Under the pieces are notes generated by a model. That model was given only the letters and a program-made list of their open reading frames with translations, ran no database searches and was not told the origin of the DNA. The translations under genes and the position numbers were made by a program. Shown one piece after another: positions 2,998 through 28,935 of a stretch of 32,000 nucleotides of DNA. Numbering within the stretch: position 1 is the first letter of the stretch; each line of letters begins with the position of its first letter. This DNA comes from an uncultured Clostridium sp. Its GTDB lineage: Bacteria > Bacillota > Clostridia > TANB77 > CAG-508. The DNA is taken from positions 12,224 through 44,223 of the forward strand of contig CAMMTN010000011.1 in the NCBI GenBank assembly GCA_946499885.1, given 5' to 3'.

Positions 2998-3246
2998 ATG
3001 TACGTACATATTGGAAAAGAAACTATAATTAAATCAGAGGAGATTATAGCTATTTTAGATATAGAATCATTACAAAAAAAGAAAAATTTAGAAGAAGTAT
3101 TACAAAATTTGAAAATTAGTGATAATATAATAGATGTATCAGAAGGGAAAAAGAAATCTTTAGTAATTATACATAAAGAAAACAAAAATTTAGGATATAT
3201 TACAAATATTTCTACAACAACATTGGGAAGAAGAGCTGAAAAATAA
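2998..3246 (+). CDS. remB: DUF370 / RemB (YaaB) family small protein
   Basis: 82 aa between recF and gyrB, the conserved Firmicute position of yaaB/remB. RBS GGAGGAATT precedes the ATG. The N-terminus MYVHIGKETIIKSEEIIAILD is typical of DUF370. Confidence 0.75.
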   Translation: MYVHIGKETIIKSEEIIAILDIESLQKKKNLEEVLQNLKISDNIIDVSEGKKKSLVIIHKENKNLGYITNISTTTLGRRAEK

Positions 3247-3258: not shown

Positions 3259-5184
<1,926 letters not shown>

Positions 5185-5192
5185 GAAAACGA

Positions 5193-5232
5193 GACCTGTT
5201 TTTTGAGAAGTAAGAAAACAGGTCCTGTTTTA
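5193..5232 (+). terminator. Intrinsic terminator after gyrB
   Basis: Hairpin GACCTGTTTT (5193-5202) / AAAACAGGTC (5215-5224) followed by CTGTTTT. Confidence 0.7.
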
Positions 5233-5258
5233 TGTCGAAATTTGTCGAACGATTTTTA

Positions 5259-5287
5259 TTGCATATATAATTTTTTTGTGATATAAA
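5259..5287 (+). promoter_or_regulatory. Candidate sigma-A promoter for the VirB4 operon
   Basis: TTGCAT (5259-5264), 17 nt, then TG-A-TATAAA (extended -10, 5282-5287). False positives are common in such AT-rich DNA. Confidence 0.35.
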
Positions 5288-5474
5288 ATAAAGCATAATT
5301 AATTCAAAATAATTTTTTTCAGTTATTTTTTTATTCTAAATTAATCCAAAATAAAATTTAACTATTATATAGGTAGGAGATGATAATATAAAAAATAAAA
5401 TTAAAAACAATAAAAATTTATCTACACAAAATTGGCTAAAAATAGAAGATATATTAGACAATGGAATTATAAAA

Positions 5475-5972
5475 ATGAAAAATAATAAATATTTAAAAAT
5501 AATTAAAATAAAGCCAATTAATTTTAATTTAAAATCAGAACTAGAAAAAGAAGCAATATTAAATTCATATAAAATATTTTTAAAAACATGTAATTTTAAT
5601 TTCCAAATTTTAATTCAAAGTAATAAAGAAGATTTATCTAATCATTTTTCTCAAATAATTAATAATTTAAATCAAGAAGAAAAAAATATCCAAGAAATAT
5701 CAAATAAATATATAAATTATATAAAAGAATTAAATAATAATAAAAAATCATCTTCAAAAAATTATTATATAATAATTAATTATGAAAATAAAAATAATGA
5801 AAATATTGATATTGATTCTTATGCAACAGAAGATTTAAATAATAAATATTTTAAAATAAAAGACTGTTTATCAAGGTGTGGAAATACTGCAATAGACATA
5901 TTAGATAAAAAACAAATAATAAAAATAATTTTTTCTTTTATTAATACAAGAATATATTTTAATAATAATTAA
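5475..5972 (+). CDS. virB4: VirB4-family conjugation ATPase, N-terminal domain encoded as a separate cistron (frame is open and motif-bearing from 5373)
   Basis: KIIKIKPINFNLKSELEKEAILNSYKIFLKTCNFNFQILIQSN matches the N-terminal pattern of Firmicute VirB4 proteins (Tn916 Orf16 / TcpF / PrgJ type, recalled from memory). The motif continues upstream of the first ATG (STQNWLKIEDILDNGIIK). Confidence 0.65.
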   Translation: MKNNKYLKIIKIKPINFNLKSELEKEAILNSYKIFLKTCNFNFQILIQSNKEDLSNHFSQIINNLNQEEKNIQEISNKYINYIKELNNNKKSSSKNYYIIINYENKNNENIDIDSYATEDLNNKYFKIKDCLSRCGNTAIDILDKKQIIKIIFSFINTRIYFNNN

Positions 5973-7089
5973 AAAAATATAAAATAAAAATAAATTAAAA
6001 TTAAATAAAAAAATAAATATAAAATTATATTAATGAAAAAATAAAAAGGCTTAAAACAAAAAATAAAAGGATAAAAAAATTAGAAAATAATAAAAAAATA
6101 TAAAATCAAATAATATTAATAAAAAATTAAAGATAAAAATATAAAAAATAGATAATAAAAAAATAATAAATTAAAAAAAGAAAAAATATAAAAAATATAG
6201 ATAAGAAAAAATAATATGACGTAAACTATAATAACATAAGAATAATTTCAAGAAACAGAAATAATTTGTATGAAATAAGATAAGTTAATAAAAAGATAAA
6301 AGTTATACAAAGAAAATATAAGGATAAAATTGAGAAGAGGTAAAATGTATAAAATATTGTCAAAAAGATATTAAAAAATAATTGCAAATTAAAGTTCGAA
6401 CAAATTTAATCAAAACTAAAAAAAGTAAAATAATTTATAGTAAACAAAGATGAGAAAGAATATAGCAAAAACAATATAAAAATATCAAGAAAATATTATA
6501 AAAAAGTGTATCGGGCTGGTAGAAAAATAGAAAAGTAATTAAATTGAAATAGAAAAAACAATAGTAAACATAATATAAAAATAAATGAGATTTAAAATTA
6601 CAAAAAATTAAAAAGATATATTGAGGTAAAGTATGAATTTAACTAGCTATATAAAAAATAACAAAAAGACAAATAACTAGTTGCAAATTTTAAAAGTTAT
6701 AATTTTATTAAAGTAGAGGATAGAATCTGAATAATTTAGAAATAAGACCAAAGAAAATAATATTAGATATGTGAAACGATACAAAAAAACAATTAACATA
6801 ACATAAAAAACTATAAAATTATAGTTGCAAAAGGGAATGACAAAAGACAGTAGCTATTACATAAAGAAGGAAGAAAATTACAAAAACAAAAGGTAATTAA
6901 TTATTATAAAAAACAAATAAATTAATAAAAAATAAAATATAAATATAATTAAATAATTGTAAAATATAAAATATTAAAAATAATAAAGATTAATTATTAA
7001 ATTAAACAAAAATAAAATTTAATTTAATAAAATTATAAAATAAATAACAAAAAAATAATTAAAAAAATTAATTTATTCAGGAGGAAAAA
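5973..7089 (+). other. 1.1 kb ORF-free, A/purine-rich spacer between the two VirB4 cistrons
   Basis: The six-frame track shows no ORF of 60 aa or more on either strand. The flanks (about 5973-6230 and 6900-7075) are almost pure A/T low complexity with A far exceeding T on the + strand. The centre contains G but very little C or T. Confidence 0.8.
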
Positions 7090-8925
7090 ATGAAATTAAT
7101 AAAAAATAAAAATAAAGAAAAAAATAATAAAAAAACAAATAAACTTGAATTTTTAGAAGGTTGTTTTTCAGAAAAAGATTTATTAGCACCATCATATATT
7201 AATTTATCTAATCCGAAATATATAGAAATAGATAATAATTATTATTCATCATTATTATTAATAAATTATTTTAGAGAACAAAATGAATTAATATTAAAAT
7301 CTTTAATAGATACAAATATAGATGTAAATATTTCAATTTTTTATGAAAAACAAGATACATATAAAACAATTAGAGAGCTTACATATCATATTGGAAATGT
7401 TGGGGCAGACTTAAAAGGAAATAATCAAAATAGACAAGATATTGAAATTGCAGCATTTACATATAATGACGCAAAATATATTAGAAAAGAATTGCAAATA
7501 AATAATGAAGAATTATATTATTTATATATTTATATTAATACATTTTCACAAAATACTAAAGAATTAGAAAATATATTAAATAAAATAGAAGGAATAATAG
7601 AATCAAAAGGTATTCAAGTAAGAAGAGCATACTTTAGACAAGAAGAAGCATATAGAGCCTGTTTACCATTTATGGAAAATCATAAATTATTAAAAGAAGT
7701 TACAAAAAGAAATATATTAACAAGTGGATTAGTAGCAACATATCCTTTTATTTCATCAGCTATTTTCGATGAAAACGGAATTTTTGTAGGAACTAATATT
7801 TATAATAAATCATTAGTATTTATTGATAGATATAATACAAATAAATATAAAAATGCAAATATGTGTATATTTGGAACATCAGGCGCAGGAAAGTCATTTT
7901 ATACAAAATTGTTAATTTTAAGATATAGGCTTATGGGAATCCACCAATATATAATAGATCCAGAAAGAGAATATAATAACTTATGCAATAATTTAAATGG
8001 AACACTATTAAAAATAGGACCTGGATCTAACACATATATTAATATTTTTGATATTAGAAAAGAAAGTATTGAAGATAATGAAAAGGGATATTTAGCAAAT
8101 AAAATAGGAAAATTAATAGGATTTTTTAATTTGATTTTTGGAAAAATAAATGAAGAAGAAAAAGCAATTTTAGAAGAAAAATTAATCGAATTATATAAAT
8201 TAAAAAATATAACTTTTGATGATAAAACTTTATATAAAGAATTAGAAAATAAAACAGATAATAATTTTATATTTAAAGAAAGTATAGATATGCCAATTTT
8301 AGAAGATTTTTATAATTTACTTGATAAAGATGAAAAAACAAAAATATTTAAAATAAAATTAATACCTTTTATTAAAGGCTCATTAAAATTTTTTAATAAT
8401 TATACAAATGTAGAATTAGATAATAAATTAATAGTTGCAGATGTGTATGAATTAGGTGAAGAAAATTTAAAATATGGAATGTATTTATTTACAGATTTAT
8501 TTTGGGACAAAATAAAAAAAGATAGAAAAATAAAAAAAGCTATTTATTTAGATGAAATATGGAGATTAATAGGTGTAACATCTAATAAGGATGTGGCAAG
8601 TTTTATTTATAAAATATTTAAAACAATTAGAAAATATGGAGGAAGTGGAGTAGCTATAACTCAAGATATATCAGATATATTTAGTTTAGAAAATGGAACT
8701 TATGGAAAAAGCATTTTAAATAATTCAAGTATAAAAACATTTTTTTCTTTAGAAGAAGAAAATATAAAAATATTAGAACAATATACTAATTTATCCGAAA
8801 AAGAAAAAATAGAAATAAAATCTTTAAAAAGAGGAGAATGTTTAATGTTTGTTGGAGATGAACACATATTAAATAAAATAGAGTCAGCTGATTTCGAAAG
8901 AGAAATAATAGAAAATAAAAATTAA
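7090..8925 (+). CDS. virB4: VirB4-family conjugation ATPase, central and C-terminal ATPase part
   Basis: Strong RBS AGGAGG 6 nt before the ATG. LLAPSYINLSNPKYIEIDNNYY matches the family segment that follows the N-domain. Walker A FGTSGAGKSFYTK (7873-7896 encodes GTSGAGKS), Walker B AIYLDEIW, and ITQDISD. Confidence 0.85.
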   Translation: MKLIKNKNKEKNNKKTNKLEFLEGCFSEKDLLAPSYINLSNPKYIEIDNNYYSSLLLINYFREQNELILKSLIDTNIDVNISIFYEKQDTYKTIRELTYHIGNVGADLKGNNQNRQDIEIAAFTYNDAKYIRKELQINNEELYYLYIYINTFSQNTKELENILNKIEGIIESKGIQVRRAYFRQEEAYRACLPFMENHKLLKEVTKRNILTSGLVATYPFISSAIFDENGIFVGTNIYNKSLVFIDRYNTNKYKNANMCIFGTSGAGKSFYTKLLILRYRLMGIHQYIIDPEREYNNLCNNLNGTLLKIGPGSNTYINIFDIRKESIEDNEKGYLANKIGKLIGFFNLIFGKINEEEKAILEEKLIELYKLKNITFDDKTLYKELENKTDNNFIFKESIDMPILEDFYNLLDKDEKTKIFKIKLIPFIKGSLKFFNNYTNVELDNKLIVADVYELGEENLKYGMYLFTDLFWDKIKKDRKIKKAIYLDEIWRLIGVTSNKDVASFIYKIFKTIRKYGGSGVAITQDISDIFSLENGTYGKSILNNSSIKTFFSLEEENIKILEQYTNLSEKEKIEIKSLKRGECLMFVGDEHILNKIESADFEREIIENKN

Positions 8926-8949
8926 TAAAAAAATTAAAAAGGAAAAAAT

Positions 8950-10146
8950 ATGAAAAAAATAATTACAGCACTTGGTAATGAAAAAATATATAATATATTG
9001 AAACAAGAAAATGATATTGAAATTATAGTAAATGATATTCAATATAAAGAAGGAATAATAGAAGTATTAGAAAAATATTTTGACATTGATTTTATTATAA
9101 TAAATAATTTGCTACAAGGAGAAATATCATTAGAAGATTTAATTAAAAAAATAATAAAAATTAATAATAATATAAAAATAATTTTAATTATAGAAAAAAA
9201 GAATGAAGAAATAAATAATAATGGTATATATAAAATTTTATATAATAATGAAAATTTAATAAGACAAATAATTGAAATTATAAATGGAAATAAATATGAT
9301 ATTGAAATAAAAAATGAAAATAACAATTTAAAAAATATTATTTCAAAAAAAGATAAAAAAATAAAAAATAAATTAAATTCAAATAAAATAAATTTTATAA
9401 AAATTAATAAATTAATATTAAATAAATTAAAAATAAAATTATTTAATATTAATAATAAAAAAATAGATAATAATGTTTCAAGAATAATTACTGTAACTGG
9501 TCCAAATGGAGTAGGGAAAAGCATTATATCTGCAAATTTAGCAAAAATAAATATTTATTCTAAAAATAAAATTTTAATAATTGATTTTAATCTTAATAAT
9601 TATTCTATTAGTACTATTCTAGGTGCAAAAAAATATCCAATAAAAAATAGTAAAAATATATTAGAAAATATTATAAAAATAAATAAAAGAATATACTTGA
9701 TTTTAGGAGAATTTTTATTAAATTCAGAAAATAAAATTGCTAAAGAAAAAATAGAAAAATTAAAAAATAATTATGATTTAATAATTATAGATTTAAGCCC
9801 ATATAATTGTGTTAAAAATCTAATAGATTTATTTAATTTTAGTGATTTTAATTTATTTTTATCAGATACTAATTTTTTAGAAATAAGTAAAACAATTAAT
9901 TTATTAAATATATTTATAAATAAATATAAAATAAATAAAAATAAATTTAGTATTTTATTTAATAAATATAATTTAAAATCAATTAATTATAAATTATTAG
10001 AAAAAATATTCTCAGAGTTTAAAATAATAGGATATTTAAAATTTAATAATAATTATAATAAATTAATAAATAAAAATAAAAAGAATTTTGGAGGTGAGAA
10101 AAAAATAAGAAACGAATATTTATATATAAATAAAAAATTAAAATAA
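8950..10146 (+). CDS. CpaE/TadZ-like protein: atypical receiver-like N-domain, N/K-rich low-complexity linker, MinD/ParA-type P-loop ATPase
   Basis: The N-terminal ~115 aa show an alternating beta/alpha pattern (KIITALG..IEIIV..DFIIINN..KIILII) without the acidic pocket. The P-loop is VTGPNGVGKSIISANLA (aa 181-197) and the Walker B-like segment is DLIIIDLSP. Confidence 0.55.
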   Translation: MKKIITALGNEKIYNILKQENDIEIIVNDIQYKEGIIEVLEKYFDIDFIIINNLLQGEISLEDLIKKIIKINNNIKIILIIEKKNEEINNNGIYKILYNNENLIRQIIEIINGNKYDIEIKNENNNLKNIISKKDKKIKNKLNSNKINFIKINKLILNKLKIKLFNINNKKIDNNVSRIITVTGPNGVGKSIISANLAKINIYSKNKILIIDFNLNNYSISTILGAKKYPIKNSKNILENIIKINKRIYLILGEFLLNSENKIAKEKIEKLKNNYDLIIIDLSPYNCVKNLIDLFNFSDFNLFLSDTNFLEISKTINLLNIFINKYKINKNKFSILFNKYNLKSINYKLLEKIFSEFKIIGYLKFNNNYNKLINKNKKNFGGEKKIRNEYLYINKKLK

Positions 10147-10170: not shown

Positions 10171-10890
10171 ATGCAATTAGAAAATAATATGGAAATAAAT
10201 AATAATTTAAATGAAATTGTTAGTGAAAAAGAACAAAATAGTTTTCTTAATTCAACATTAGGAAAAGTTGTAGATTCTGCAATAGATGTAGGTTTAAGAA
10301 TGGTTCTACCAGATTTTATAGAAGATGGAACAATAGCAGTAAAAAATGCTCTTTTGCAAGGCGGGCTAAAAGAAGGAATAGATACAGCAATAAATGGAGC
10401 AATTAGTTTAGGAAAAAGTGTGTTAGGAATATTTACAGGAAAATTTGATGATATTTCTCAAGCAAGAAATGCTATAAAAAGTGGAGGAATAATAGATGGA
10501 ATATCAGATGTTTTAGATAAAGTAATAAACAAAACTAGCTCATCGGGAATAATTGACAAAAATATAGCAAATCTTATAAGCAACGGTAAAGATGCAATAT
10601 TGGATAGTGTAACAAACAAGATAGAAGATGAATTTACAAAACAAATTGATTCAGCAGAAAAGCTTGCAAAATATGAAACAAATTGGAAAGAATATTTTAA
10701 AAATAAAGATTTTAAAGGAATGCAAAGGGAATACGATAAAATAAAAGACAAAATAAAAGAATTATTGCCAATAGAAAATACTTTAAAAGAAGCAAGAGTA
10801 ATAGAAAATTTACATACATTAATAAAAAATAATGGACAAGATTTTAATTTGACAAAAGAACAATTAGAATTAGCAAATATGTTAAGCTAA
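10171..10890 (+). CDS. Hypothetical protein (helical, with internal G-[IL]-x-D/E-G-I repeats)
   Basis: 239-aa ORF with strong RBS GGGAGAGG and its own terminator. Composition is ordinary compared with its neighbours. No family recognised. Confidence 0.6.
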   Translation: MQLENNMEINNNLNEIVSEKEQNSFLNSTLGKVVDSAIDVGLRMVLPDFIEDGTIAVKNALLQGGLKEGIDTAINGAISLGKSVLGIFTGKFDDISQARNAIKSGGIIDGISDVLDKVINKTSSSGIIDKNIANLISNGKDAILDSVTNKIEDEFTKQIDSAEKLAKYETNWKEYFKNKDFKGMQREYDKIKDKIKELLPIENTLKEARVIENLHTLIKNNGQDFNLTKEQLELANMLS

Positions 10891-10962: not shown

Positions 10963-11006
10963 ACACTTGTATTTAAAACATATGTGTGAAAGGACGGAAA
11001 ACAAAA

Positions 11007-13454
11007 ATGGAAGAAAATGAAGGAAAAATCATTGAAAGAAATATTGAACAAGAAATGAAAACATCATATATTGATTATGCAATGAGTGTTATTGTTTCTC
11101 GTGCACTTCCTGATGTAAGAGATGGTTTAAAACCAGTACATAGAAGAATATTATATGCTATGTATGAAGATGGTATAACTTCTGATAAAGCTTATAGGAA
11201 AAGTGCAAATACAGTTGGTTCTGTTTTAGGAAGATATCATCCTCATGGAGATGCTTCTGTATATGATGCTATGGTAAGAATGGCACAAGACTTTTCTCTT
11301 AGATATCCATTAATAGATGGTCATGGAAACTTTGGTTCAATTGATGGAGACTCAGCAGCTGCTATGAGGTACACAGAAGCTAGAATGTCAAAAATATCTG
11401 AAACAATGCTTACTGATATAGAAAAAAATACAGTAGATTTTATGCCAAACTATGATGACAGATTACAAGAGCCAACAGTATTACCATCAAAAATACCAAC
11501 TCTTCTAATTAATGGGTCATCAGGGATTGCAGTTGGAATGGCAACAAATATACCACCACACAATTTAACAGAGGTAATAAATGGTATTGTAAAAATTATT
11601 GATTCAGATAATGTTACAGATGAAGAACTAATGGCAATAATAAAAGGACCAGATTTTCCTACAGAAGGATTAATTTTAGGAAGAGAAGGTATAAAAGAAG
11701 CTTATACAACAGGTAAAGGTAAAATTACAATGAGAGCAGAGGCAGAAATAGAAGAAATGAGTGGAAATAAACAAAGAATTATTGTAAGCTCTTTACCATA
11801 CCAAGTAAATAAGGCTAAATTAATTGAAAATATTGCAAATTTAGTTAAAGAAAAAAGAATTGAAGGAATATCAGAAGTAAGAGATGAATCTGATAGAGAA
11901 GAAAAAGTAAGAGTTGTAGTTGAACTAAAAAGAGATGTTAATGCACAAGTTATACTAAATCAACTATATAAATTTACTCAAATGCAAGAAACATTTGGTG
12001 TTATTATGCTTGCATTAGTTGATGGTCAGCCTAAAATATTAACTTTAAGACAATGCTTAGAATATTACATAGATCATAGAAAAACTGTTATTCTTCGTAG
12101 AACTCAATTTGACTTAGATAAGGCATTAGCAAGAGCTCATATATTAGAAGGATTAAAAATTGCATTAGACAATATTGATGAAGTAATTGAAATTATTAGA
12201 AATTCTTATGATGATGCAAAAGAAAGATTAATGGAAAGATTTGGTCTTTCAGATATACAAGCTCAAGCAATTCTTGATATGAGATTAAAAACATTATCAG
12301 GTTTACAACGTGAAAAAATAGAAGAAGAATATAATGAATTAATGAAGTTAATTGAACATTTAAGAGCAATACTTGCAAGCGATAGACTAGTATATGACAT
12401 TATAAAAGAAGAATTATTAGAAATAAAAGATAAATACGGTGATGAAAGAAAAACAAAAATAGTAGCAGCTGAAGGAGAATTTGATGTTGAAGATTTAATT
12501 AAAGAAGAACAATGCGTTGTTGCCTTAACTCATTTTGGATATGTAAAGAGAATGCCAATTGATACATATAAAAGCCAAAAAAGAGGAGGAAAAGGAATAA
12601 CAGGAATTGCAACTAGAGAAGAAGATTTTGTAAAACAAATATTTACTGCATCTACGCATGATACTATATTATTCTTTAGTAATAAAGGAAAGGTATATAG
12701 ATTAAGAGGATATGAAATACCAGAAGCAGGAAGAACAGCAAAAGGTACAGCAATAGTAAATCTTTTAGCTTTAGACGGCGGAGAAAAAATATCTGCAGTT
12801 ATTCCAATTTCTAATTTTGCAGATGGAAAATATCTTTTAATGGCAACAAGAAATGGAACTATTAAAAAGACACCTTTAAATGAATATATTTCTGTAAGAA
12901 AAAACGGATTAATAGGAATAACACTAAAAGAAAATGATGAATTAATAGATGTAAGATTAACTGATGGAGAAGATAATGTAGTTCTTGTTACAAGTAAAGG
13001 TATGTGTATTACATTTGATGAAAAAGATGTAAGACCAATGGGAAGAACCTCTCAAGGTGTAATTGGAATTAGAGTTTCAGAAGATGATTTTGTAATAGGA
13101 ATGGAATCTATAATTCAAGGAAGTAAAGCTACACTTCTTGCAATTACTGAAAACGGATTTGGAAAGAGAACAGAACTTGATGAATACAGAGTTCAAACAA
13201 GAGGGGGAAAAGGAGTAATAACATATAAGGTAACTCATAAAACAGGAAATTTAGTTGGAATAAGAATTGCAACAGATGATGAAGATGTAATGCTTATAAC
13301 TGATACAGGTACAATAATTAGACTAAGAGTTGCAGAAATTAGTGTTCTTGGAAGATCTACACAAGGAGTAACTTTAATGAGAACAAATGAAGGTAAAGTA
13401 GTTAGCATAGAAACGATACCAATGGAAGAAAAAAATGAAGATTCAGGTGAATAA
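11007..13454 (+). CDS. gyrA: DNA gyrase subunit A
   Basis: [37 protein letters not shown], the catalytic-Tyr region [10 protein letters not shown], and C-terminal beta-pinwheel repeats. The ORF opens at GTG 10986, but ATG 11007 is the likelier start. Confidence 0.97.
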
Positions 13455-13517: not shown

Positions 13518-13547
13518 AAAGGACTGAGTTTAATCAGTCCTTTTTTT
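13518..13547. terminator. Bidirectional terminator shared by gyrA (+) and the helicase-loader gene (-)
   Basis: AAAGGACTGA / TCAGTCCTTTTTTT: stem GGACTGA 13521-13527 / TCAGTCC 13534-13540, flanked by an A-run and a T-run. It overlaps the stop codon of the minus-strand gene. Confidence 0.7.
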
Positions 13548-14534
13548 AAATCTAATATCATCTCCGAAAAAATAACAAATATCATAATTTCCAACAATTC
13601 TTGAAACGATACGTTCATCATAATTTGAATATAAATTTTTCAAACTTAAATTAGTAGAAATAATAGTTTTTGTAACTTTATTTTGATTTAATAATCTAGT
13701 ATTAATAATATTAAATAACTCCGTAAATTTCATACCATTCATACATTCTGTTCCTAAATCATCTATTATTAATAAATCGACATTTAAAATACTATCTAGA
13801 ATATTTGAATCCCTTGTTTTTCCAAATCTGTAATCTATTATGGAATCAAGCATAACTGGAGCTGTTTGATATAAGACATTTTTACCTTTTTTCAATAATT
13901 CATTTGCAATTGCACTTGATAAAAATGTTTTTCCTAAACCTGTATTTCCAGTAAATAATAAATTTTTTTGGTTTATATCCTCAAAATTTTCTATAAATTT
14001 AAAACAAATATTTTTTATTAAATTAATATTTTCTCTTGGAGAGATACTAGTATGATACTTATTTTCATCTACTTTATCAGAATAATATAAATCAGAAAAA
14101 TTTTCAAAATTTTGTGTATTTAAATTTGAAATATTTGCTTTATTATATTGCTCATTATAAAGTTTTTGTTTTAAACAACTACACATAGAGGAAGTATAAT
14201 CAATATTTGTTATATATCCTGAATCTTTGCACAGACTACATTCATAATGTGGCTCGAAAAAATCTTCAGAAATATTAATAGATTTTAAAATTTTACTTTT
14301 TTCATTTTTTAATTTAGTAATATTATTATTTAATTCTTCTAATAATTTCTTATCATTATTATTTATTATAGATTTAGTAGTAGAAATAGCAAGAAAAGTT
14401 AATTTATCATCTATTTCTTGAAGTTTAGGGTATTTTTTATATAATTCTTGCTTTCTTAAATTTGCTTCATATTCAGCATTTATTTTTTTCTTATTGTATT
14501 GTGATAATATATTTTTTAATAAAATATCTGACAT
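13530..14534 (-). CDS. DnaI/DnaC-like replicative helicase loader (AAA+ ATPase with N-terminal Cys cluster)
   Basis: Cys motif CSLCKDSGYI...CSC, Walker A FTGNTGLGKTFLSSAIANEL, Walker B DLLIIDDLGTE, and a sensor region TIISTN. Confidence 0.85.
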   Translation of the reverse strand: MSDILLKNILSQYNKKKINAEYEANLRKQELYKKYPKLQEIDDKLTFLAISTTKSIINNNDKKLLEELNNNITKLKNEKSKILKSINISEDFFEPHYECSLCKDSGYITNIDYTSSMCSCLKQKLYNEQYNKANISNLNTQNFENFSDLYYSDKVDENKYHTSISPRENINLIKNICFKFIENFEDINQKNLLFTGNTGLGKTFLSSAIANELLKKGKNVLYQTAPVMLDSIIDYRFGKTRDSNILDSILNVDLLIIDDLGTECMNGMKFTELFNIINTRLLNQNKVTKTIISTNLSLKNLYSNYDERIVSRIVGNYDICYFFGDDIRFKKRTD

Positions 14535-14627
14535 TAAAATTTATATGATATATTTAAAAATAAATAATCATAATCTCCTTTTGCAATATATTTAGGTTTT
14601 TTATAAAGGATGTACCCATAAACCCAA

Positions 14628-15593
14628 TTATTTAAGATTCGCATATAAACTCTCTAAATTATCATAAGTTCTTTGTTCATATTTATTATATCCTGTTTGT
14701 TTTTCTAATTGTTTTACATTTTTATTTTTTTCTTTCATCTCAGATAAAAATTCCTGAACTTCATTTGAAGTTTTAAAACCTCTATCATGCCAATCAGTAA
14801 GTAATTTATCCAAATAATCAAAAGTAGGGTTAGCCTTTGAAGTTGTACGTTTTAATGCAATTTCAATAATATCCATACTAAATCCAAAATCAATAATCCA
14901 TTTTTCTATATACCCATACTCATATTGTGTAAGATTTCTAGAAATTCCTAATTTTTTTGAAATGGTTTTAGCAATTACATTTATTTTTTCTTGTTTTTCG
15001 TAATATGTATCTAAATCATTAAAACTTCTTATATTGTTTTTGTTCCAAGCCTCTGCTACTGTTTGTACATAATTTTTGTGAAGAGCAGATTTATCAAAAC
15101 AATATCCAAACAGAGCAATCATTACTTCTTCATCAAAATTATATTTTTTAAACCATAGTTCTATTTCAGGATACCAAGTAGTAGGCATAAGCCCTGAAAA
15201 ATATTTGTTGTTTATAAAATCAATTGCTTTTGCACGTTTTTGATTTTCAGCAGATTTTTTTAATTGGTCAGCAGATAAAGCAGTTTTAGGTTTATACAAT
15301 TTGTGTAATTCAATTTCTTGAATGCTATTAATAATATATCCAGTATTCTTCTTTGTTATTAAACATTTATCTTCCCAATATTTAACTGCATCTTGAATTG
15401 TTTTTAATGGAAGAACTAATTTTTTAGATAAATCATTTACTTTAATATCTTTATCATATTTTGATAAAAATACCATATATAAATATACTTTTATGAAATC
15501 GCCAGAAGCTTCTGATAAATATTCAGAAAAAAATATATCTGGTAATAAAGTATTTGAAAATAATGATGATAAGTCTGCACTTTCTAATTTCAT
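14628..15593 (-). CDS. DnaD/DnaB-type replication initiation (primosome) protein with two DnaB_2-like repeats
   Basis: The N-terminal LPDIFFSEYLSEASGDFIKVYLYMVF is winged-helix-like. There are two repeats of the DnaD C-terminal type (..ALFGYCFDK..YVQTVAEAWNKNNI.. and ..IIEIALKRT..FDYLDKLLTDWHDRGF..). RBS AAAGGGGGA. Confidence 0.8.
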   Translation of the reverse strand: MKLESADLSSLFSNTLLPDIFFSEYLSEASGDFIKVYLYMVFLSKYDKDIKVNDLSKKLVLPLKTIQDAVKYWEDKCLITKKNTGYIINSIQEIELHKLYKPKTALSADQLKKSAENQKRAKAIDFINNKYFSGLMPTTWYPEIELWFKKYNFDEEVMIALFGYCFDKSALHKNYVQTVAEAWNKNNIRSFNDLDTYYEKQEKINVIAKTISKKLGISRNLTQYEYGYIEKWIIDFGFSMDIIEIALKRTTSKANPTFDYLDKLLTDWHDRGFKTSNEVQEFLSEMKEKNKNVKQLEKQTGYNKYEQRTYDNLESLYANLK

Positions 15594-15624
15594 CTATAGT
15601 TCCCCCTTTAAAAGTATGAATAAG

Positions 15625-15653
15625 ATTATATCATTATATTTGTGTTTTTACAA
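15625..15653 (-). promoter_or_regulatory. Candidate sigma-A promoter of the dnaD-like/dnaI-like operon
   Basis: On the minus strand: TTGTAA (15653-15648), 17 nt, TATAAT (15630-15625), about 30 nt upstream of the ATG at 15593. Confidence 0.55.
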
Positions 15654-15729
15654 TCCAAAAAAAAGGAAAAAATAGTAGAAAAGAGAAGAAAAAGAAAGAA
15701 AAACATAGAAAAAAACAGTTTGTTAAAAT

Positions 15730-16014
15730 TTAATACTTTTTGTATAAATAAATTTTAGGTCTGCAAATATAAAAATATAAATATTGCAATATATATAATA
15801 TTTTTTCATGATTAAATCCTATTATACTAAATAAAGCAAAAGGCAAGAAAAGTATAATAAAAATACTAATTTTTACTGTTATATTAGGTATAAAAAAATA
15901 TACAAAAGCAAATATAATTAATCCCCATATTATATTTAAAATCACAGTAGTATAATCAATAAAACCTAATAACTTACTATTAAAATTATAATTTTGTGGA
16001 AAAATAAATTTCAT
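15730..16014 (-). CDS. PrgI/VirB3-like small conjugation membrane protein
   Basis: FPQNYNFNSKLLGFIDYTTVILNI followed by two TM helices and GFNHEKILYILQYLYFYICRPKIYLY, a PrgI/Tn916 Orf17-like layout. The ORF opens at GTG 16044, but ATG 16014 follows AAAGGAA by 11 nt. Confidence 0.55.
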   Translation of the reverse strand: MKFIFPQNYNFNSKLLGFIDYTTVILNIIWGLIIFAFVYFFIPNITVKISIFIILFLPFALFSIIGFNHEKILYILQYLYFYICRPKIYLYKKY

Positions 16015-16065
16015 ATAAAATACCATTCCTTTCTTTTGGTACACAAGTTATAAAAATAAATAAAA

Positions 16066-16956
16066 TTATTTTATATATCCTTTCAAAACTTTAAAATTCT
16101 GTGCAACATCTGTTGAAATACCTCCTATAAAATGTTGCACATAAGAATTTGCTCTAATTAAAGCATATATAGATCCAATGCACAATATTTTAGATGCAAC
16201 ATCTGGGCTTGCAAAATCTAAAGCAAATATTATTAATAAAACTATAGAAATAAAAGGTTGAACAAATAATAAAGATATAAATATTTTAAACCAAGATTTG
16301 AAAAACCAAGAACTAGAATTATTAATTAGTGTAAGTAAAGCAAAAGGGGTAAGAAGTACAAGAACTTTTACCATTATATATCTAAGAGAATATGAAAAAA
16401 GTAAACTCATAAAACTAGCAGAAATTAAACTTCTTAATAATCCATCAAAAGAAAAAACATTAAGGGTTGTAGAATCAATAGTTATTGTAGAATTTAAGTT
16501 TTCTATTAAATTAGAAAAACAAATTTTTTCACCTAATATATTTTGTCCAATTTCACGAATAGCATCAGAAATAAGAGAATTAAAATAAATAAAAGTTTCA
16601 CAAATAAAATAAGAGCAATTAATAAAAATTCCAAAAATTAATAATTTAAAAACAAATTGATAAGGTCTTTCTATTTGAATACCAGCAAAATATGAATATA
16701 GTAATTTAAAACAATAATATATGCACACAGCAAGTAACAATGAATTTGCAATTAGGATTAAGCTATTATTTGAATTATTATTAAATAATTTTTCAAATAA
16801 AGAATCATTAATAATATTAGTATTAATAAAAGATAATTCATCTAAAGTATTATAAACACTGTTATCAATAGAAGAAAATAATGTATTTAATAAAGTATTT
16901 ATTGTATCAATTATAACCTGTGAAATATTAGTTGTATTTGTAATTGCTTCTTCCAA
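16066..16956 (-). CDS. VirB6/TrbL-like polytopic conjugation channel protein
   Basis: Multi-TM protein (about 6 hydrophobic helices) with the family-like segment SYSLRYIMVKVLVLLTPFALL...WFKSWFKIF. The ORF opens at GTG 16995, but the in-frame TTG at 16956 sits 6 nt after GGAGGT (16968-16963). Confidence 0.6.
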   Translation of the reverse strand: MEEAITNTTNISQVIIDTINTLLNTLFSSIDNSVYNTLDELSFINTNIINDSLFEKLFNNNSNNSLILIANSLLLAVCIYYCFKLLYSYFAGIQIERPYQFVFKLLIFGIFINCSYFICETFIYFNSLISDAIREIGQNILGEKICFSNLIENLNSTITIDSTTLNVFSFDGLLRSLISASFMSLLFSYSLRYIMVKVLVLLTPFALLTLINNSSSWFFKSWFKIFISLLFVQPFISIVLLIIFALDFASPDVASKILCIGSIYALIRANSYVQHFIGGISTDVAQNFKVLKGYIK

Positions 16957-17042
16957 AAATATACCTCCAAAATAAAAATTTGATATAAAAACCACAAAAT
17001 TTATAAATTTAATAATAAAATATTTATTTAATAATTAAAAAA

Positions 17043-17390
17043 TTAATCAATTAAAGATTTAATAGCAGATAATATTAAATTAATTGCTAAAATAAATCCA
17101 TAAGAAAATAAGGATCCTCTGATTAATTTTTTTGCAACTCTAATTCTTTCTTCGTCACCAAAACTAAATTTTTTCATAAATACACCAACACCAACTGCAA
17201 CAGCAGCTGCAGGAGTAGCAAGAGTTAGAAGCCATCCTTCTATATCTTCAAAAGCATCATTTAGTTTTTTTACAAGCTCTGGTTCAGAATCAAAAAGTCC
17301 AGCCAAACTAATATTAGAAAATAAGAAAAATAATATAAATAAAAAGCAAATAGAATAAAAAATAATAAATTTAATTTTTTGTTTTTTCAT
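17043..17390 (-). CDS. VirB2/TrbC-like pilin-type small membrane protein
   Basis: 115 aa with a signal peptide (MKKQKIKFIIFYSICFLFILFFLFSNISLA|G) followed by two hydrophobic helices (LLTLATPAAAVAVGVGVF and LFSYGFILAINLILSAI). Topology and gene position are as for VirB2. Confidence 0.5.
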   Translation of the reverse strand: MKKQKIKFIIFYSICFLFILFFLFSNISLAGLFDSEPELVKKLNDAFEDIEGWLLTLATPAAAVAVGVGVFMKKFSFGDEERIRVAKKLIRGSLFSYGFILAINLILSAIKSLID

Positions 17391-17408
17391 AAAGTATCAT
17401 CCTTTCAA

Positions 17409-18959
17409 TTATTTTTTAAAATAAGGTTTTAATTTTATCTTTTGTGGCTTAATAATTTTATTACCATCAGATAAAAAAGATAAACTACAAAAATTTCCAA
17501 GTTCTTGGGTAAAAAACTTAGTATCATAAACATATTCATAGCTAATTTGTGTGCTAATACTTTCTGATATATTAGAATCAGTTGAATTTAAAGAATTAGT
17601 AATATAGCTATAATTAGTTTCTTTTGCATTTTCAGAAATACTTTTAAATATTTTTTCTTTATCTTCTTTACCAATTTGTTTTTGCGCATTTTCAATAGTA
17701 AAAATATCATCAGTTCTAAACCAAAATTTATTTACTAAATTTTGAATAATTACTTCTACAGAATATTTATTATTTAAAGTGTTTAAAAGGGAAGTATAAC
17801 TTTGTGTTGCTACAATATTTATACATTTTGCTTCTCTACTTTGGGCATAAAATTCACTATCTGAAACAGTTGCGTATTCATGATATTCATCTGATATAAA
17901 TGCAACAGTTCTAGAAGAATTTTTAAAATTGTGCGCAAGTCTTGCCATTACTTCTGATTGAAAATCTAGTTTTAAATAAGTTGCAATTATTTTAGATAAA
18001 ATTTTATACTCAGAAATATTCATATTTAAAACAACTATTTTTCCAGTATTAATTAAATCTTCAAAACCAAAGAAATTAAGTTCTTCTTTTTTGGGGTTAA
18101 AAGTAGAATATATCTCATAATCAGATACAAAGACATTTGTAATACGGGTAATTTCAGACTTTAAAATAGATAGAGTTCTTAAATCTAAAGATAAAAATTC
18201 TTTTTGAAAAAAAGTTAAACTAGATAATAAATTATAAATATCTTCTTTTGAAAATTCATTATTTATAAATTTATTTCGCAGTATTTCTATTTTTTCAAGA
18301 TAATAATTATTTTCAGAAATTAATTTATGTATTTCTTCAAAAGTGACATATCCATTATTATATAATCTACAAAGCTTGATACATTCTGCTAAAATTTGTT
18401 CTACTTTATCAAGCCAATAACTTTCAGAATTATTAGGAGAAAATAAAAGCAAAATTGTTTTTAATCTATTTGCTAAAACTGAAGCTTTTAAATTAGGTTT
18501 ATGTAAAGGATTATATTTATATTTTCCAGCTAAGCTAATTATAATTAAATCATTTTCTCTTTTAGCATTTTTAGCAAATTCAGAAACTTTAATATAATAA
18601 TTTCCTTTAACATCTAAAATAAGCATACCAATTTTATTTGAATTATCTAAAGCAGAATATTTAATTAATTGTTTAGTAAAAGGGTACATTGCACTACTTG
18701 TTTTTCCAGTACCAATAGTTCCTGTAATTAATATATTTTGATATAAACTTTTTTCTGATAAATATATGGGAATATTAGAAGAATAATTATTTCCAACAAA
18801 TAAATTTAAATCTTTTTTTATATTTTTTAAATTATTTTCGTTAAAAAAAGTATATTTATTTTTATTTAATTTTAATTTATAAAAAACAACGGAAATAAAT
18901 TTAAATATTTTTTTAAAATTAAATAAAATTAAAAACTTTTTTAATTTATTTAAAAACAA
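17409..18959 (-). CDS. virD4: VirD4/TraG-type type IV coupling protein (T4CP); annotated from TTG 18959, coding frame continues upstream
   Basis: Walker A LITGTIGTGKTSS, Walker B VAFISDEYHEYA, and ATQSYTSL (the QS..L motif of T4CPs). The N-terminal TM region lies in the same frame at 19280-18960 without an ATG, GTG or TTG. Confidence 0.8.
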   Translation of the reverse strand: MFLNKLKKFLILFNFKKIFKFISVVFYKLKLNKNKYTFFNENNLKNIKKDLNLFVGNNYSSNIPIYLSEKSLYQNILITGTIGTGKTSSAMYPFTKQLIKYSALDNSNKIGMLILDVKGNYYIKVSEFAKNAKRENDLIIISLAGKYKYNPLHKPNLKASVLANRLKTILLLFSPNNSESYWLDKVEQILAECIKLCRLYNNGYVTFEEIHKLISENNYYLEKIEILRNKFINNEFSKEDIYNLLSSLTFFQKEFLSLDLRTLSILKSEITRITNVFVSDYEIYSTFNPKKEELNFFGFEDLINTGKIVVLNMNISEYKILSKIIATYLKLDFQSEVMARLAHNFKNSSRTVAFISDEYHEYATVSDSEFYAQSREAKCINIVATQSYTSLLNTLNNKYSVEVIIQNLVNKFWFRTDDIFTIENAQKQIGKEDKEKIFKSISENAKETNYSYITNSLNSTDSNISESISTQISYEYVYDTKFFTQELGNFCSLSFLSDGNKIIKPQKIKLKPYFKK

Positions 18960-19280
18960 TTTATTTAAATTAAATAATTTTTTGAAAAATACAGAAAAAA
19001 TAAAATAAATAAAATTAGAAATAATAAATGAAGAAAAAATATATGTAATAAAAAATGTGATTTTAATATATTTCCATAAATCAGGATTTTTAATGCAAAT
19101 ATCAAAAGGATGTATTCCATAAGTAATTATTATAGAATTTGAATAAAAAATATTAGAAAATAATTTATATCCAATAAAACAATAAATAAATGAAAAAATA
19201 ATTATAAATAAAAATCGCTTAATAAAAGTACCTCCAATTATAAAATTTAAATAATTTAAAAAATGAAAATTGTAAAGAAA

Positions 19281-19436
19281 TTAATTATTAAAAAAATCAG
19301 ATTTTAATTTTAGTTTAGAACCTTGTAAATTATGAAATAATTTATTATTGAAAAATAAATAAATTGAATAAAGAGTAATAAAAAGATGAATAATAAAAAA
19401 TATAAAGAATAAATCAATTAGGTTTAATTTAAACAC
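19281..19436 (-). CDS. 51-aa hydrophobic ORF, in frame with and probably the original 5' end of the T4CP gene
   Basis: AGGA, 5 nt, then GTG (19436). It reads MFKLNLIDLFFIFFIIHLFITLYSIYLFF... and ends at TAA 19283-19281, which is in the same frame as the downstream T4CP reading frame. Confidence 0.35.
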   Translation of the reverse strand: MFKLNLIDLFFIFFIIHLFITLYSIYLFFNNKLFHNLQGSKLKLKSDFFNN

Positions 19437-19456
19437 CGCCTTCCTAATTTTTACCA

Positions 19457-19485
19457 ATCATACAACATTTTTTTTGTTTTGTCTA
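19457..19485 (-). promoter_or_regulatory. Candidate promoter of T4SS module B
   Basis: On the minus strand: TAGACA (19485-19480), 17 nt, TATGAT (19462-19457). Confidence 0.3.
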
Positions 19486-19524
19486 TAGTTTTCTGAAAAA
19501 TTCGTAAAAAATATTCTAAAACAA

Positions 19525-19577: not shown

Positions 19578-19598
19578 CTTTTATTAAAAAATTTAACA

Positions 19599-21407: not shown

Positions 21408-21419
21408 AATTTTAACCTC

Positions 21420-28853: not shown

Positions 28854-28899
28854 TTTAAATGATCCTTTCAAAATATATATTCTCTACAATTACAAAAAA

Positions 28900-28928: not shown

Positions 28929-28935
28929 CAAAATC

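What the first reader, a model, noticed from the sequence alone, without database searches (positions are those of the whole stretch)
5475..8925. VirB4 ATPase encoded as two separately translated cistrons cut exactly at the N-domain boundary
Seen: ORF 5475-5972 ends with TAA after ...DILDKKQIIKIIFSFINTRIYFNNN. ORF 7090-8925 has its own strong AGGAGG RBS and ATG and begins with a K/N-rich tail followed by LLAPSYINLSNPKYIEIDNNYY. Together (165-194 aa plus 611 aa) they are collinear with a single ~800-aa Firmicute VirB4 (N-terminal INF/Y-x-L segment, then the xAPSxIxxxxxxYxxID segment, then the Walker A region), as I recall the Tn916 Orf16 / TcpF family. Inference: the break separates the membrane/VirB3-associated N-domain from the ATPase body, so a functional two-piece VirB4 is conceivable. 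It would be a natural domain-splitting experiment in an otherwise universally fused T4SS signature protein. The alternative is a pseudogene.
Basis: partly seen in the sequence, partly recalled or inferred. Interest (0 to 1): 0.7.

Follow-up and report, generated by a model that had tools for sequence, protein, structure and literature searches.

The report
Two-gene VirB4 (TrsD plus ATPase)
The two reading frames are a real, conserved two-gene form of the VirB4 secretion ATPase, but this split is already known from staphylococcal conjugative plasmids and Patescibacteria; the newer point is that it belongs to a secretion-system gene set fixed next to the replication origin in a clade of uncultured gut Clostridia.

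Summary
An N piece (5388/5475-5972) and a C piece (7090-8925) are collinear with one VirB4. They match NCBIfam NF045971 positions 1-170 and 179-731 of 752. A 1117-nt, 61%-A, stop-dense spacer lies between them.

It is not a pseudogene. In 78 related species the layout gyrB-N-C-(ParA-like)-p239-gyrA recurs. N and C are always separate and never fused. Both frames stay intact (1/73 and 0/79 with internal stops). Both are under purifying selection.

It is not a novel split. The N piece is a TrsD/TraD-family protein and the C piece is a short VirB4 like pSK41 TraE, with the same breakpoint. A published paper already describes TrsD as a remote homologue of the VirB4 N-terminus. pCP13 also carries the two pieces, separated by topA.

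The break is not at the N-domain/ATPase boundary. The C piece keeps about 220 residues ahead of the ATPase domain.

The 1.1-kb spacer is a species-specific expansion of an intergenic gap that is usually about 50-150 nt.

Context: VirD4-like, VirB2-like pilin and candidate VirB6/VirB3 genes lie just beyond gyrA-dnaI-dnaB. No relaxase is present. This resembles the origin-proximal T4SS of Patescibacteria.

The parts
3271..5184 (+). gyrB, the upstream chromosomal flank of the island
   Evidence: 637-aa ORF. Relatives carry HATPase_c/DNA_gyraseB/Toprim domains. 81-98% identical in 65 related loci.
5193..5224 (+). Intrinsic terminator-like hairpin after gyrB. A promoter-like site follows at 5242-5271.
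   Evidence: This is the only terminator-like site in 5100-7300, against 0.0 expected from shuffles. The promoter-like site is at chance level.
5388..5972 (+). N piece: a TrsD/TraD-like protein, homologous to the first ~170 positions of VirB4. It is 194 aa from a probable ATA start after AGGAGG-type SD 5375-5379, or 165 aa from the ATG at 5475.
   Evidence: NF045971 positions 1-170 and NF045975 positions 93-265. 58/71 orthologues hit NF041427 TrsD. Orthologues carry PF26593 TraC-like. AF2 model has pLDDT 70.7 and its best PDB fold hits are TrwK/VirB4 at E 0.026. dN/dS is 0.16-0.28.
5973..7089 (.). A-rich, low-complexity, non-coding spacer; a species-specific expansion of the trsD-virB4 intergenic gap
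   Evidence: 61% A, 4.5% C. No ORF over 53 aa. Only degenerate A-rich tandem repeats. No Rfam match, even at E<=5. Folding z-score -0.11. No terminator. Similar only to L006 (and, over its last 96 nt, the short contig L005). The distance from the N stop to a conserved C-piece anchor is 1204 nt here, against a median of 136.5 nt in 78 loci.
7090..8925 (+). C piece: short VirB4 ATPase. It comprises a disordered K/N-rich tail (residues 1-26), the second part of the N-terminal domain (about 30-220), and the ATPase C-terminal domain (223-606). Walker A GTSGAGKS is at residues 262-269 (nt 7873-7896). Walker B DE is at residues 488-489 (nt 8551-8556). The SD AGGAGG is at 7079-7084.
   Evidence: NF045971 positions 179-731 at 291 bits. 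Pfam P-loop_TraG, AAA_10 and DUF87. 4AG5 by sequence at E 1e-42 and by fold with target-normalised TM 0.89. TrwK matched over ~600 columns. AF2 pLDDT 86.7. Invariant G265, G267, K268 and E489. dN/dS 0.09-0.13.
8950..10146 (+). ParA/MinD-type P-loop ATPase with an N-terminal receiver-like part and an N/K-rich linker; an island gene
   Evidence: CbiA/ParA Pfam hits on residues 177-377. Present in most related loci and fast-evolving. A 'Response_reg+CbiA' gene also lies in the mobile element that carries the closest fused VirB4.
10171..10890 (+). p239, a conserved island protein of unknown function
   Evidence: No significant family match. Present in about 65 loci. dN/dS 0.15-0.27 against the nearest species.
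10986..13454 (+). gyrA, the downstream chromosomal flank of the island
   Evidence: 822-aa ORF. Conserved in the loci.
15730..16044 (-). p104: small two-TM protein, a candidate VirB3/PrgI-like partner of VirB4. The likely start is MKF at 16014.
   Evidence: Sequence. Conserved in 41 loci. Only a single weak family hit among 15 orthologues, so the assignment is inferred from size, hydrophobic pattern and position.
16066..16995 (-). p309: polytopic membrane protein, a candidate VirB6/TrbL-like channel subunit
   Evidence: Sequence. Conserved in 40 loci. One orthologue hits TrbL/VirB6 (E 0.004) and one hits the CD3337/EF1877 family. The assignment is weak.
17043..17390 (-). VirB2-like T4SS pilin
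   Evidence: PF18895 T4SS_pilin at E 8e-4 for the window copy. 13/13 orthologues hit it (best E 3e-6) and 3 also hit TrbC/VirB2.
17409..18959 (-). VirD4/TrwB-like coupling-protein ATPase
   Evidence: PF10412 TrwB_AAD_bind at E 7.7e-11 and TraG-D_C. SXT_TraD at E 4.5e-7. Conserved in 35 loci whose flank reaches that far.

Best explanation
The two ORFs are the two-gene form of VirB4. One is a TrsD/TraD-family protein, corresponding to the first ~190-residue sub-domain of VirB4. The other is a 'short' VirB4, comprising the rest of the N-terminal domain plus the ATPase domain. This is the architecture of pGO1/pSK41-type Gram-positive (MPF_FATA) type IV secretion systems and of the Patescibacteria T4SS.

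Shown:
- Each piece has its own Shine-Dalgarno site and is kept as an intact, selectively constrained frame across a whole clade.
- The break falls at the same place as the TrsD|TraE boundary.
- In fused relatives that position is a 20-45-residue variable linker.

Inferred:
- The two proteins are translated separately and associate non-covalently to rebuild the VirB4 N-terminal domain. In R388 that domain mediates VirB4 dimerisation and VirB3 binding.
- The 1.1-kb A-rich stretch is a neutral, species-specific expansion of the intergenic gap. It has no role of its own. The C piece has a strong SD and ATG, and pCP13 shows that the pieces need not be adjacent.
- The pair works with the VirD4-like, VirB2-like, and candidate VirB6/VirB3 genes found beyond gyrA-dnaI-dnaB. 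Together they form a vertically inherited, origin-proximal T4SS with no relaxase in the 32-kb window. Its substrate is unknown.
For: Collinearity with VirB4 profiles.

TrsD membership of the orthologue set: 58/71 hit NF041427, and all 71 hit the N-terminus of VirB4 models. PF26593 is present on all 120 stand-alone ~190-aa homologues.

Same breakpoint in pSK41: TraE covers NF045971 positions 183-730 and the window C piece covers 179-731. C-piece residue 44 aligns with TraE residue 49. trsD lies directly upstream.

Literature: TrsD is remotely homologous to the VirB4 N-terminus and, according to that paper, a VirB4-associated TrsD homologue is essential in Ca. Southlakia (PMC12102498).

The split occurs in conjugation-type gene clusters. 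pCP13, whose Pcp locus PMC8941779 describes as a conjugation locus, has PcpJ matching NF045975 positions 95-279 and PcpB4 matching 304-893, with topA between them. L086 and L088 also carry split pairs.

Conservation: 78 loci show gyrB-N-C-...-gyrA and none is fused. Internal stops occur in 1/73 N pieces and 0/79 C pieces. dN/dS against the nearest species is 0.16-0.28 for N, 0.09-0.13 for C and about 0.04 for gyrB. Identities co-vary with gyrB (rho 0.76-0.79). Between the window and L006 the N piece has 0/585 nucleotide differences against 16/1117 in the spacer (p = 0.002).

Linker: fused relatives have the N domain ending 20-45 residues before the C-piece-equivalent region. C-piece residues 1-26 are predicted to be disordered.

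Structure: the C piece matches the 4AG5 C-terminal domain and TrwK over ~600 columns. The N piece weakly matches TrwK.

Spacer: no ORF, RNA family, structure, terminator or cross-species homology.
Against: There is no expression or protein-interaction evidence; physical association of the pieces is inferred.

The window's own N piece does not reach E<=0.01 against the TrsD model. All orthologue matches are presumably far below that model's 200-bit curated cut-off; only best E-values were returned. hhalign of the N-piece profile against pSK41 TrsD is not significant.

The N piece here has no ATG/GTG/TTG at the conserved start, so it needs an ATA start or begins 29 residues late.

The N piece evolves two to three times faster than the C piece. 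One species (L049) has a stop in it.

With a 1.1-kb untranslated stretch and no recognisable promoter above chance, the stoichiometry of the two products in this species is uncertain.

The VirB3-like and VirB6-like assignments are weak. Only 32 kb were examined for a relaxase.
Confidence: 0.8

Rival explanations
1. Pseudogene: a once-fused VirB4 of a decaying integrated element was broken by insertion of 1.1 kb of junk DNA, and neither piece functions.
For: The island has very low G+C (12-19%). There is a 1.1-kb stop-dense insertion. The N piece has no canonical start codon. No relaxase or integrase is nearby. The C piece scores just below the CD1110 equivalog cut-off (291 vs 325 bits).
Against: The split predates the spacer. 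All 78 species have separate N and C pieces, mostly about 50-150 nt apart. Frames are intact in 72/73 N pieces and 79/79 C pieces. dN/dS is well below 1. Walker A and B residues are invariant. The same split occurs in conjugation loci of plasmids (pSK41, typed conjugative; pCP13).
Confidence: 0.04
2. Partial decay in this species only. The short VirB4 is functional, but the N piece is being lost here because it has been uncoupled by the 1.1-kb spacer and left with an ATA start.
For: This species has the largest spacer of 78 loci. It has an ATA instead of an ATG. The N piece is the less constrained partner, and L049 shows that an N piece can acquire a stop.
Against: The N frame is intact and 80-83% identical to the nearest species, with dN/dS of 0.16-0.28. 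It shows 0/585 differences from L006 while the adjacent spacer has 16/1117. ATA/ATT after AGGAGG is the commonest predicted start of both pieces across the clade, so it is not a defect specific to this species. pCP13 works with 2.1 kb between its pieces.
Confidence: 0.1
3. A single fused protein is still produced by recoding (stop read-through, ribosomal bypass or RNA splicing across the spacer).
For: In 7 species the two frames are in phase and separated by a single TAA.
Against: Frame offsets of 0, 1 and 2 all occur, and gaps range from -11 to about 1100 nt. The window's spacer is stop-dense in every frame. It has no intron or other Rfam match and no excess structure. A strong SD precedes the C piece in nearly every locus.
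Confidence: 0.01
4. Assembly or binning artefact: two fragments joined by low-complexity sequence.
For: The source is a metagenomic assembly, and low-complexity A-rich DNA is hard to assemble.
Against: An independent MAG contig (L006) has the same N-spacer-C layout at 98.5% spacer identity. Another contig (L005) covers the spacer-C junction. The gene order matches 78 other species, including a circular long-read chromosome, OZ007016 (L013).
Confidence: 0.02

Closest known systems
TrsD/TraD + TrsE/TraE of staphylococcal conjugative plasmids pGO1/pSK41 (MPF_FATA, pGO1 subclass)
   Same: A ~190-230-aa protein homologous to the VirB4 N-terminus is encoded just upstream of a ~610-670-aa VirB4 that starts at the same profile position, about 180 of 752. 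VirB2-like, VirD4-like and TrbL/VirB6-like genes belong to the same system.
   Different: The system here is chromosomal and lies between gyrB and gyrA. There is no relaxase in 32 kb and the layout is syntenic across about 80 species. The two genes are 1.1 kb apart instead of 14 nt. C-piece identity to TraE is only 27%. The window N piece is too diverged to hit the TrsD model on its own.
Chromosomal origin-proximal T4SS of Patescibacteria (PMC12102498)
   Same: Shared features are VirB4 plus TrsD, VirB2-like pilin and VirB3/VirB6 candidates; a location beside dnaA/dnaN/rnpA/rpmH; no relaxase nearby; and a small-genome, uncultured host.
   Different: The host here is a Clostridia lineage by record titles and by Firmicute-type neighbours such as the remA-like gene, dnaB/dnaI and recF-gyrB. 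Whether its VirB4 belongs to the Patescibacteria clade was not tested. Here the coupling protein is encoded close by.
Pcp conjugation locus of Clostridium perfringens pCP13 (PcpJ ... topA ... PcpB4)
   Same: A short VirB4 (632 aa, NF045975 positions 304-893) and a separate 214-aa protein matching positions 95-279 are not adjacent; they are 2.1 kb apart. This shows that distance between the pieces is tolerated in a conjugative system.
   Different: The intervening DNA in pCP13 is a gene (topoisomerase), not non-coding A-rich DNA. pCP13 is a plasmid with a relaxase. PcpJ is annotated only as hypothetical, so its TrsD-like nature is my inference.
Fused Firmicute VirB4 (CD1110 / Tn916 Orf16 / TcpF type), e.g. 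P0126 in mobile element L087
   Same: 47% identity to the C piece. The N domain and the C region are collinear. A T4SS_pilin gene, a coupling protein and a receiver+ParA gene lie in the same element.
   Different: It is one 849-aa polypeptide with a ~45-residue linker where the window has a stop, a spacer and a restart. It sits next to a relaxase and MobC.

Membership tests
VirB4/TraC-type T4SS ATPase (C piece) | Walker A and Walker B motifs in a RecA-like C-terminal domain homologous to the solved VirB4 C-terminal domain | tested here: met
   GTSGAGKS at residues 262-269 and DE at 488-489, invariant across 58 homologues. 4AG5 by sequence at E 1e-42 and by fold at E 7e-26 with target-normalised TM 0.89.
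VirB4/TraC-type T4SS ATPase (C piece) | Full-length match to curated VirB4 family models above their cut-offs | tested here: not met
   NF045971 scores 291 bits against a cut-off of 325, and NF045975 scores 254 against 590. Adding the N piece's 30.8 bits gives about 322 for NF045971, still just below. The models were built on fused proteins.
VirB4 N-terminal domain (N piece + first ~220 residues of C piece) | Collinear coverage of the whole N-terminal domain without overlap or a large gap | tested here: met
   NF045971 positions 1-170 and 179-731; NF045975 positions 93-265 and 277-893. The C-terminal domain starts at C-piece residue 223. TrwK is matched over ~600 columns by the C piece and ~175-185 columns by the N piece.
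TrsD/TraD family conjugative transfer protein (NCBIfam NF041427) | Sequence match to the family model | tested here: inconclusive
   58 of 71 orthologues match at E<=0.01, with a best E of 7.9e-10. The split relatives L086 and L088 match at 2.8e-6 and 4e-5. The window copy itself does not reach E<=0.01, and none is likely to approach the 200-bit curated cut-off that pSK41 TrsD passes with 227.6 bits; bit scores for the orthologues were not returned.
TrsD/TraD family conjugative transfer protein (NCBIfam NF041427) | A ~200-aa protein with remote homology to the VirB4 N-terminus, encoded upstream of a short VirB4 | tested here: met
   The definition comes from PMC12102498.
Pfam PF26593 TraC-like | Match to the Pfam model | not testable with these tools
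   The local Pfam copy lacks this model. P0271 carries a precomputed PF26593 hit but gets none locally. Orthologues of the N piece carry precomputed PF26593 hits.
Conjugative element (ICE or plasmid) | Relaxase, and an integrase or replication module, associated with the T4SS genes; variable presence among related genomes | tested here: not met
   No relaxase or integrase is found among the ORFs of at least 100 aa scanned across the 32-kb window. The genes are interleaved with gyrB, gyrA, dnaI and dnaB. They are syntenic in 35-78 species and their identities track gyrB. Only the window and 10-kb flanks were examined.
Patescibacteria-type chromosomal T4SS | Origin-proximal location, TrsD plus VirB4, VirB2-like pilin, and no relaxase nearby | tested here: met
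   rnpA-rpmH-dnaA-dnaN-recF lie upstream in relatives. dnaN and recF are in the window. The pilin is supported. The description comes from PMC12102498.
Patescibacteria-type chromosomal T4SS | VirB4 falls inside the monophyletic Patescibacteria VirB4 clade | not tested
Record titles name the hosts as Clostridia.

The most novel reading that the evidence does not exclude
A complete, relaxase-less T4SS has been domesticated and fixed beside the replication origin in a whole clade of uncultured, small-genome gut Clostridia. Its components are TrsD, a short VirB4, VirD4, a VirB2-like pilin and VirB6/VirB3 candidates. It parallels the Patescibacteria T4SS that is essential for epibiotic growth. On this reading it serves contact-dependent uptake or exchange with other cells (DNA, nucleotides or proteins) rather than conjugation, and could help explain why these organisms resist cultivation.
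Probability: 0.3. Interest if true: 0.7.

Novelty: new member of a known kind. Interest (0 to 1): 0.4.

Why it matters
The split itself does not open a new question. VirB4 in two genes (TrsD plus a short VirB4) is already catalogued, and conjugation loci of plasmids carry it, although TrsD has no assigned function.

The locus adds three useful things:

1. About 80 independent, vertically inherited natural replicates of the two-piece protein. They show that both pieces are maintained and that their spacing can vary from overlap to 1.1 kb. The published Patescibacteria analysis could not show this for Firmicutes.

2. A second case, outside Patescibacteria, of a T4SS gene set fixed next to oriC with no relaxase in the region examined, in an abundant but uncultured group of gut bacteria.

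3. The unannotated PcpJ of pCP13 as a tractable handle. Deleting it would test what the detached VirB4 N-module does.

Tried and rejected
Intron or structured RNA in the spacer. Rfam found nothing at gathering thresholds or at E<=5. The central 700 nt fold no better than shuffles (z -0.11). Rejected.

Hidden gene or decayed gene in the spacer. No ORF exceeds 53 aa. Only degenerate A-rich tandem repeats are present. blastn finds only L006 and L005 plus compositional matches at non-homologous places. Rejected.

Read-through of a single stop. Seven species have the two frames in phase across one TAA, but an SD follows each stop and other species differ in frame. Rejected.

N piece as a duplicate of the first domain of the C piece. 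The two AF2 models have a similar order of strands and helices, but hhalign finds no similarity (probability 0.14). Left as an unsupported hint.

hhalign of the N-piece profile against pCP13 PcpJ and against pSK41 TrsD. Neither is significant. The link rests instead on the NCBIfam models.

tblastn of the N piece against plasmids. No match.

Pfam on the N piece. No hit, because the local copy lacks PF26593.

dN/dS for distant pairs is inflated because dS saturates at about 0.6-0.9 in this AT-rich genome. Only the nearest species are used as evidence.

GTDB placement in TANB77/CAG-508 is from my memory of 'Clostridium sp. CAG:567/575'. The TANB77 paper does not name these genera, so the placement is unverified. 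That paper's conserved 'pilin' cluster is a Tad-type pilus, not this T4SS.

Full report
**What is in the window.** The region lies in the replication-origin neighbourhood of a low-G+C bacterium. The gene order is dnaN (534-1652), recF (1874-2974), a remA-like ORF (2998-3246), gyrB (3271-5184), a 5.8-kb island, then gyrA (10986-13454). The island has 12-19% G+C, against 27-31% in gyrB and gyrA.

The island contains the two ORFs of the finding, a ParA/MinD-like ATPase (8950-10146) and a 239-aa protein of unknown function (10171-10890). ORF 7090-8925 follows AGGAGG, 5 nt, then ATG. Between them are 1117 nt with no ORF longer than 53 aa on either strand.

**The two ORFs are collinear halves of VirB4.** NCBIfam profiles place the N piece on positions 1-170 of the 752-position CD1110-type VirB4 model and the C piece on positions 179-731. 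On the 894-position Mycoplasma-ICE VirB4 model the ranges are 93-265 and 277-893. Nothing overlaps and nothing substantial is missing.

Homology in the N frame starts about 20 codons upstream of the ATG at 5475. The frame is open from 5373. AGGAG (5375-5379) is followed after 8 nt by an in-frame ATA at 5388, which gives a 194-aa product.

**The split is not a pseudogene.** The 611-aa C piece has hundreds of database relatives of 600-620 aa at 86-99% identity. A scan of one genome per species returned 80 loci from uncultured gut Clostridia MAGs of humans, chickens, rabbits, mice and ruminants. They include 'Clostridium sp. CAG:567' and 'CAG:575' and a circular 1.57-Mb chromosome.

Wherever the contig is long enough, the order is gyrB, N piece, C piece, (ParA-like), p239, gyrA. 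In all 78 loci that hold both pieces they are separate. Every N-piece stop inspected (window and seven loci) is TAA. The two frames differ by 0, 1 or 2. None is fused. Only 1 of 73 N pieces (L049) and 0 of 79 C pieces contain an internal stop.

Against the nearest species, dN/dS is 0.09-0.13 for the C piece, 0.16-0.28 for the N piece and about 0.04 for gyrB. Values for more distant pairs are inflated by saturated dS, so I do not use them. Identities of both pieces track gyrB identity (Spearman 0.76-0.79; gyrA against gyrB gives 0.84), which is consistent with vertical inheritance.

Between the window and the independent MAG contig L006, the N piece has 0/585 nucleotide differences while the adjacent spacer has 16/1117 (p = 0.002).

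**The split is already known.** All 120 best homologues of the N-piece profile are stand-alone proteins of 185-225 aa carrying Pfam PF26593 'TraC-like'. Fifty-eight of 71 N-piece orthologues hit NCBIfam NF041427 'TrsD/TraD family conjugative transfer protein', and all 71 hit the N-terminus of VirB4 models.

In pSK41, trsD (227 aa) sits 14 nt upstream of a 672-aa VirB4 (TraE). That VirB4 covers positions 183-730 of the CD1110 model, which is the same breakpoint as here. It aligns with the C piece from residue 44/49 onwards.

[quoted passage not shown] It says TrsD is found in the pGO1 subclass of MPF_FATA and has no assigned function. It also reports that a VirB4-associated TrsD homologue is listed as essential in Ca. 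Southlakia epibionticum (PMC12102498).

I also found the split in three other places:
- A conjugative-type cluster at 36% identity (L086: a 198-aa TraC-like gene plus a 627-aa VirB4).
- A cluster at 53% identity (L088).
- The Pcp conjugation locus of the C. perfringens plasmid pCP13. The 'hypothetical' PcpJ matches VirB4 model positions 95-279 (E 5.6e-8) and PcpB4 matches 304-893, with the 2.1-kb topA gene between them.

Among the 96 closest 50%-identity clusters that cover the C piece fully, 71 are fused, 21 are of the short type and 4 are ambiguous. The premise of an 'otherwise universally fused' VirB4 is therefore wrong.

**Where the cut lies.** The solved VirB4 ATPase domain (4AG5) aligns with C-piece residues 223-606, by sequence (E 1e-42) and by fold (target-normalised TM 0.89). 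The AF2 model of the C piece (pLDDT 86.7) has a disordered K/N-rich tail (residues 1-26) and a confidently folded alpha/beta domain at about residues 30-220 ahead of the ATPase domain. It aligns with R388 TrwK over about 600 columns.

In TrwK the N-terminal domain is residues 15-400 (PMC9259494). The break is therefore inside the N-terminal domain, after its first ~190-residue module. It is not at the N-domain/ATPase boundary.

In fused relatives that module ends 20-45 residues before the C-piece-equivalent region. In P0126, for example, the module spans 20-205 and the C region starts at 252. The cut therefore sits in a variable linker.

The N-piece model is moderate (pLDDT 70.7). Its best PDB matches are TrwK chains, but the matches are weak (E 0.026).

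**The spacer.** It is 61% A and 4.5% C, and consists of degenerate A-rich repeats. It has no Rfam match, no excess RNA structure, no terminator and no promoter-like signal above chance. It is similar only to the same species (L006, 98.5%, plus the last 96 nt in the short contig L005); other hits are compositional.

The distance from the N-piece stop to a conserved C-piece anchor has a median of 136.5 nt in 78 loci. A few species reach 590-715 nt, and this species has the maximum at 1204 nt. I read the spacer as a neutral expansion of an intergenic gap. The C piece has its own strong SD and ATG, and pCP13 shows that adjacency is dispensable.

**Context.** Beyond gyrA, on the minus strand, the order along the + strand coordinates is:
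- dnaI-like gene and dnaB/dnaD-like gene.
- A 2-TM 104-aa protein.
- A polytopic 309-aa protein.
- A 115-aa T4SS pilin. 13/13 orthologues hit PF18895 and 3 hit TrbC/VirB2.
- A 516-aa VirD4/TrwB-like coupling protein.

This block is syntenic in every related locus whose flank reaches that far. No relaxase or integrase lies in the 32 kb. In relatives the upstream flank is rnpA-rpmH-dnaA-dnaN-recF.

The closest fused VirB4 (P0126, 47% identity) sits in a mobile element with a relaxase, MobC, a T4SS_pilin gene, a coupling protein and a receiver+ParA gene. That is a plausible ancestor type.

The overall picture matches what PMC12102498 describes for Patescibacteria: an origin-proximal, apparently relaxase-less T4SS with TrsD, VirB4, a VirB2-like pilin and VirB3/VirB6 candidates. 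I found no paper linking such a system to TANB77/CAG-508-type Clostridia. The conserved 'pilin' cluster reported for TANB77 is a Tad pilus. Placing this lineage in TANB77 relies on my memory and was not verified.

**Verdict.** Its claims of novelty and of a cut at the domain boundary do not hold. This is a new chromosomal member of the known TrsD + short-VirB4 architecture, with an unusually long non-coding gap between the genes. The more interesting lead is the clade-wide, origin-proximal T4SS with no relaxase in the region examined.

Noticed in passing
window 5375-5390; L001-L085 at the starts of the N and C pieces: Many orthologues have no ATG/GTG/TTG between the upstream in-frame stop and the conserved region (N piece 22/73, C piece 45/79). 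Instead an AGGAGG-type SD lies 7-9 nt before an in-frame ATT or ATA. The predicted C-piece starts are 34 ATT, 23 ATA, 2 ATC, 12 ATG and 3 TTG, and 5 loci have no prediction. The same lack of a canonical start appears for recF (17/65) and gyrA (12/60). This suggests that AUU/AUA initiation is common in this clade.
   Followed up: partly
L089 (pCP13, NC_003042) 11183-11827 (-) and 7112-9010 (-): PcpJ is annotated as hypothetical. It matches the N-terminal part of a VirB4 model (NF045975 positions 95-279, E 5.6e-8). PcpB4 covers positions 304-893. pCP13 therefore has an unrecognised split VirB4 whose halves are separated by topA.
   Followed up: partly
window 13530-18959 (-): A second block of T4SS-like genes (VirD4-like, VirB2-like pilin, a polytopic 309-aa protein and a 2-TM 104-aa protein) lies immediately beyond dnaI-like and dnaB/dnaD-like genes. 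The T4SS genes are thus interleaved with essential replication genes, and the block is syntenic in related species.
   Followed up: partly
window 5388-8925 compared with L006: The N piece, spacer and C piece differ from L006 by 0.0%, 1.4% and 0.7% of nucleotides. The flanking gyrB, ParA-like gene, p239 and gyrA differ by 3.0-5.0%. This looks like a recent recombination tract or sweep covering just the split VirB4.
   Followed up: no
window 8950-10146: The ParA/MinD-like ATPase has a receiver-like N-terminal part and an N/K-rich low-complexity linker. It evolves fast (dN/dS 0.5-0.8) and varies in length (398-482 aa) or is split in relatives. A similar 'Response_reg+CbiA' gene lies in the mobile element that carries the closest fused VirB4.
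   Followed up: no
window 19599-30822: This region holds a 7TM-PAS histidine kinase (19599-21407, -), a 2483-aa NRPS most similar to the AusA/aureusimine type (21420-28871, -) and an AMP-binding enzyme (29131-30822, +). The NRPS and the kinase were not seen in any related locus; few flanks extend far enough for this to be informative.
   Followed up: no
window N piece (5388-5972) and C-piece residues 30-220 (about 7177-7749): The AF2 models of the N piece and of the first folded domain of the C piece show the same order of strands and helices (beta-beta-beta, alpha, beta, alpha-alpha, beta, alpha, beta, alpha). This hints at an internal duplication in the VirB4 N-terminal domain, but hhalign finds no sequence similarity.
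   Followed up: partly
L049 9153-9719: This is the only N piece of 73 with an internal stop codon (residue 117). It may be a real loss in that species or a sequencing error.
   Followed up: no
window 18960-19598: A second long A/T-rich non-coding gap (639 nt, 15% G+C) lies upstream of the VirD4-like gene. Large low-complexity intergenic stretches are therefore not confined to the VirB4 split.
   Followed up: no
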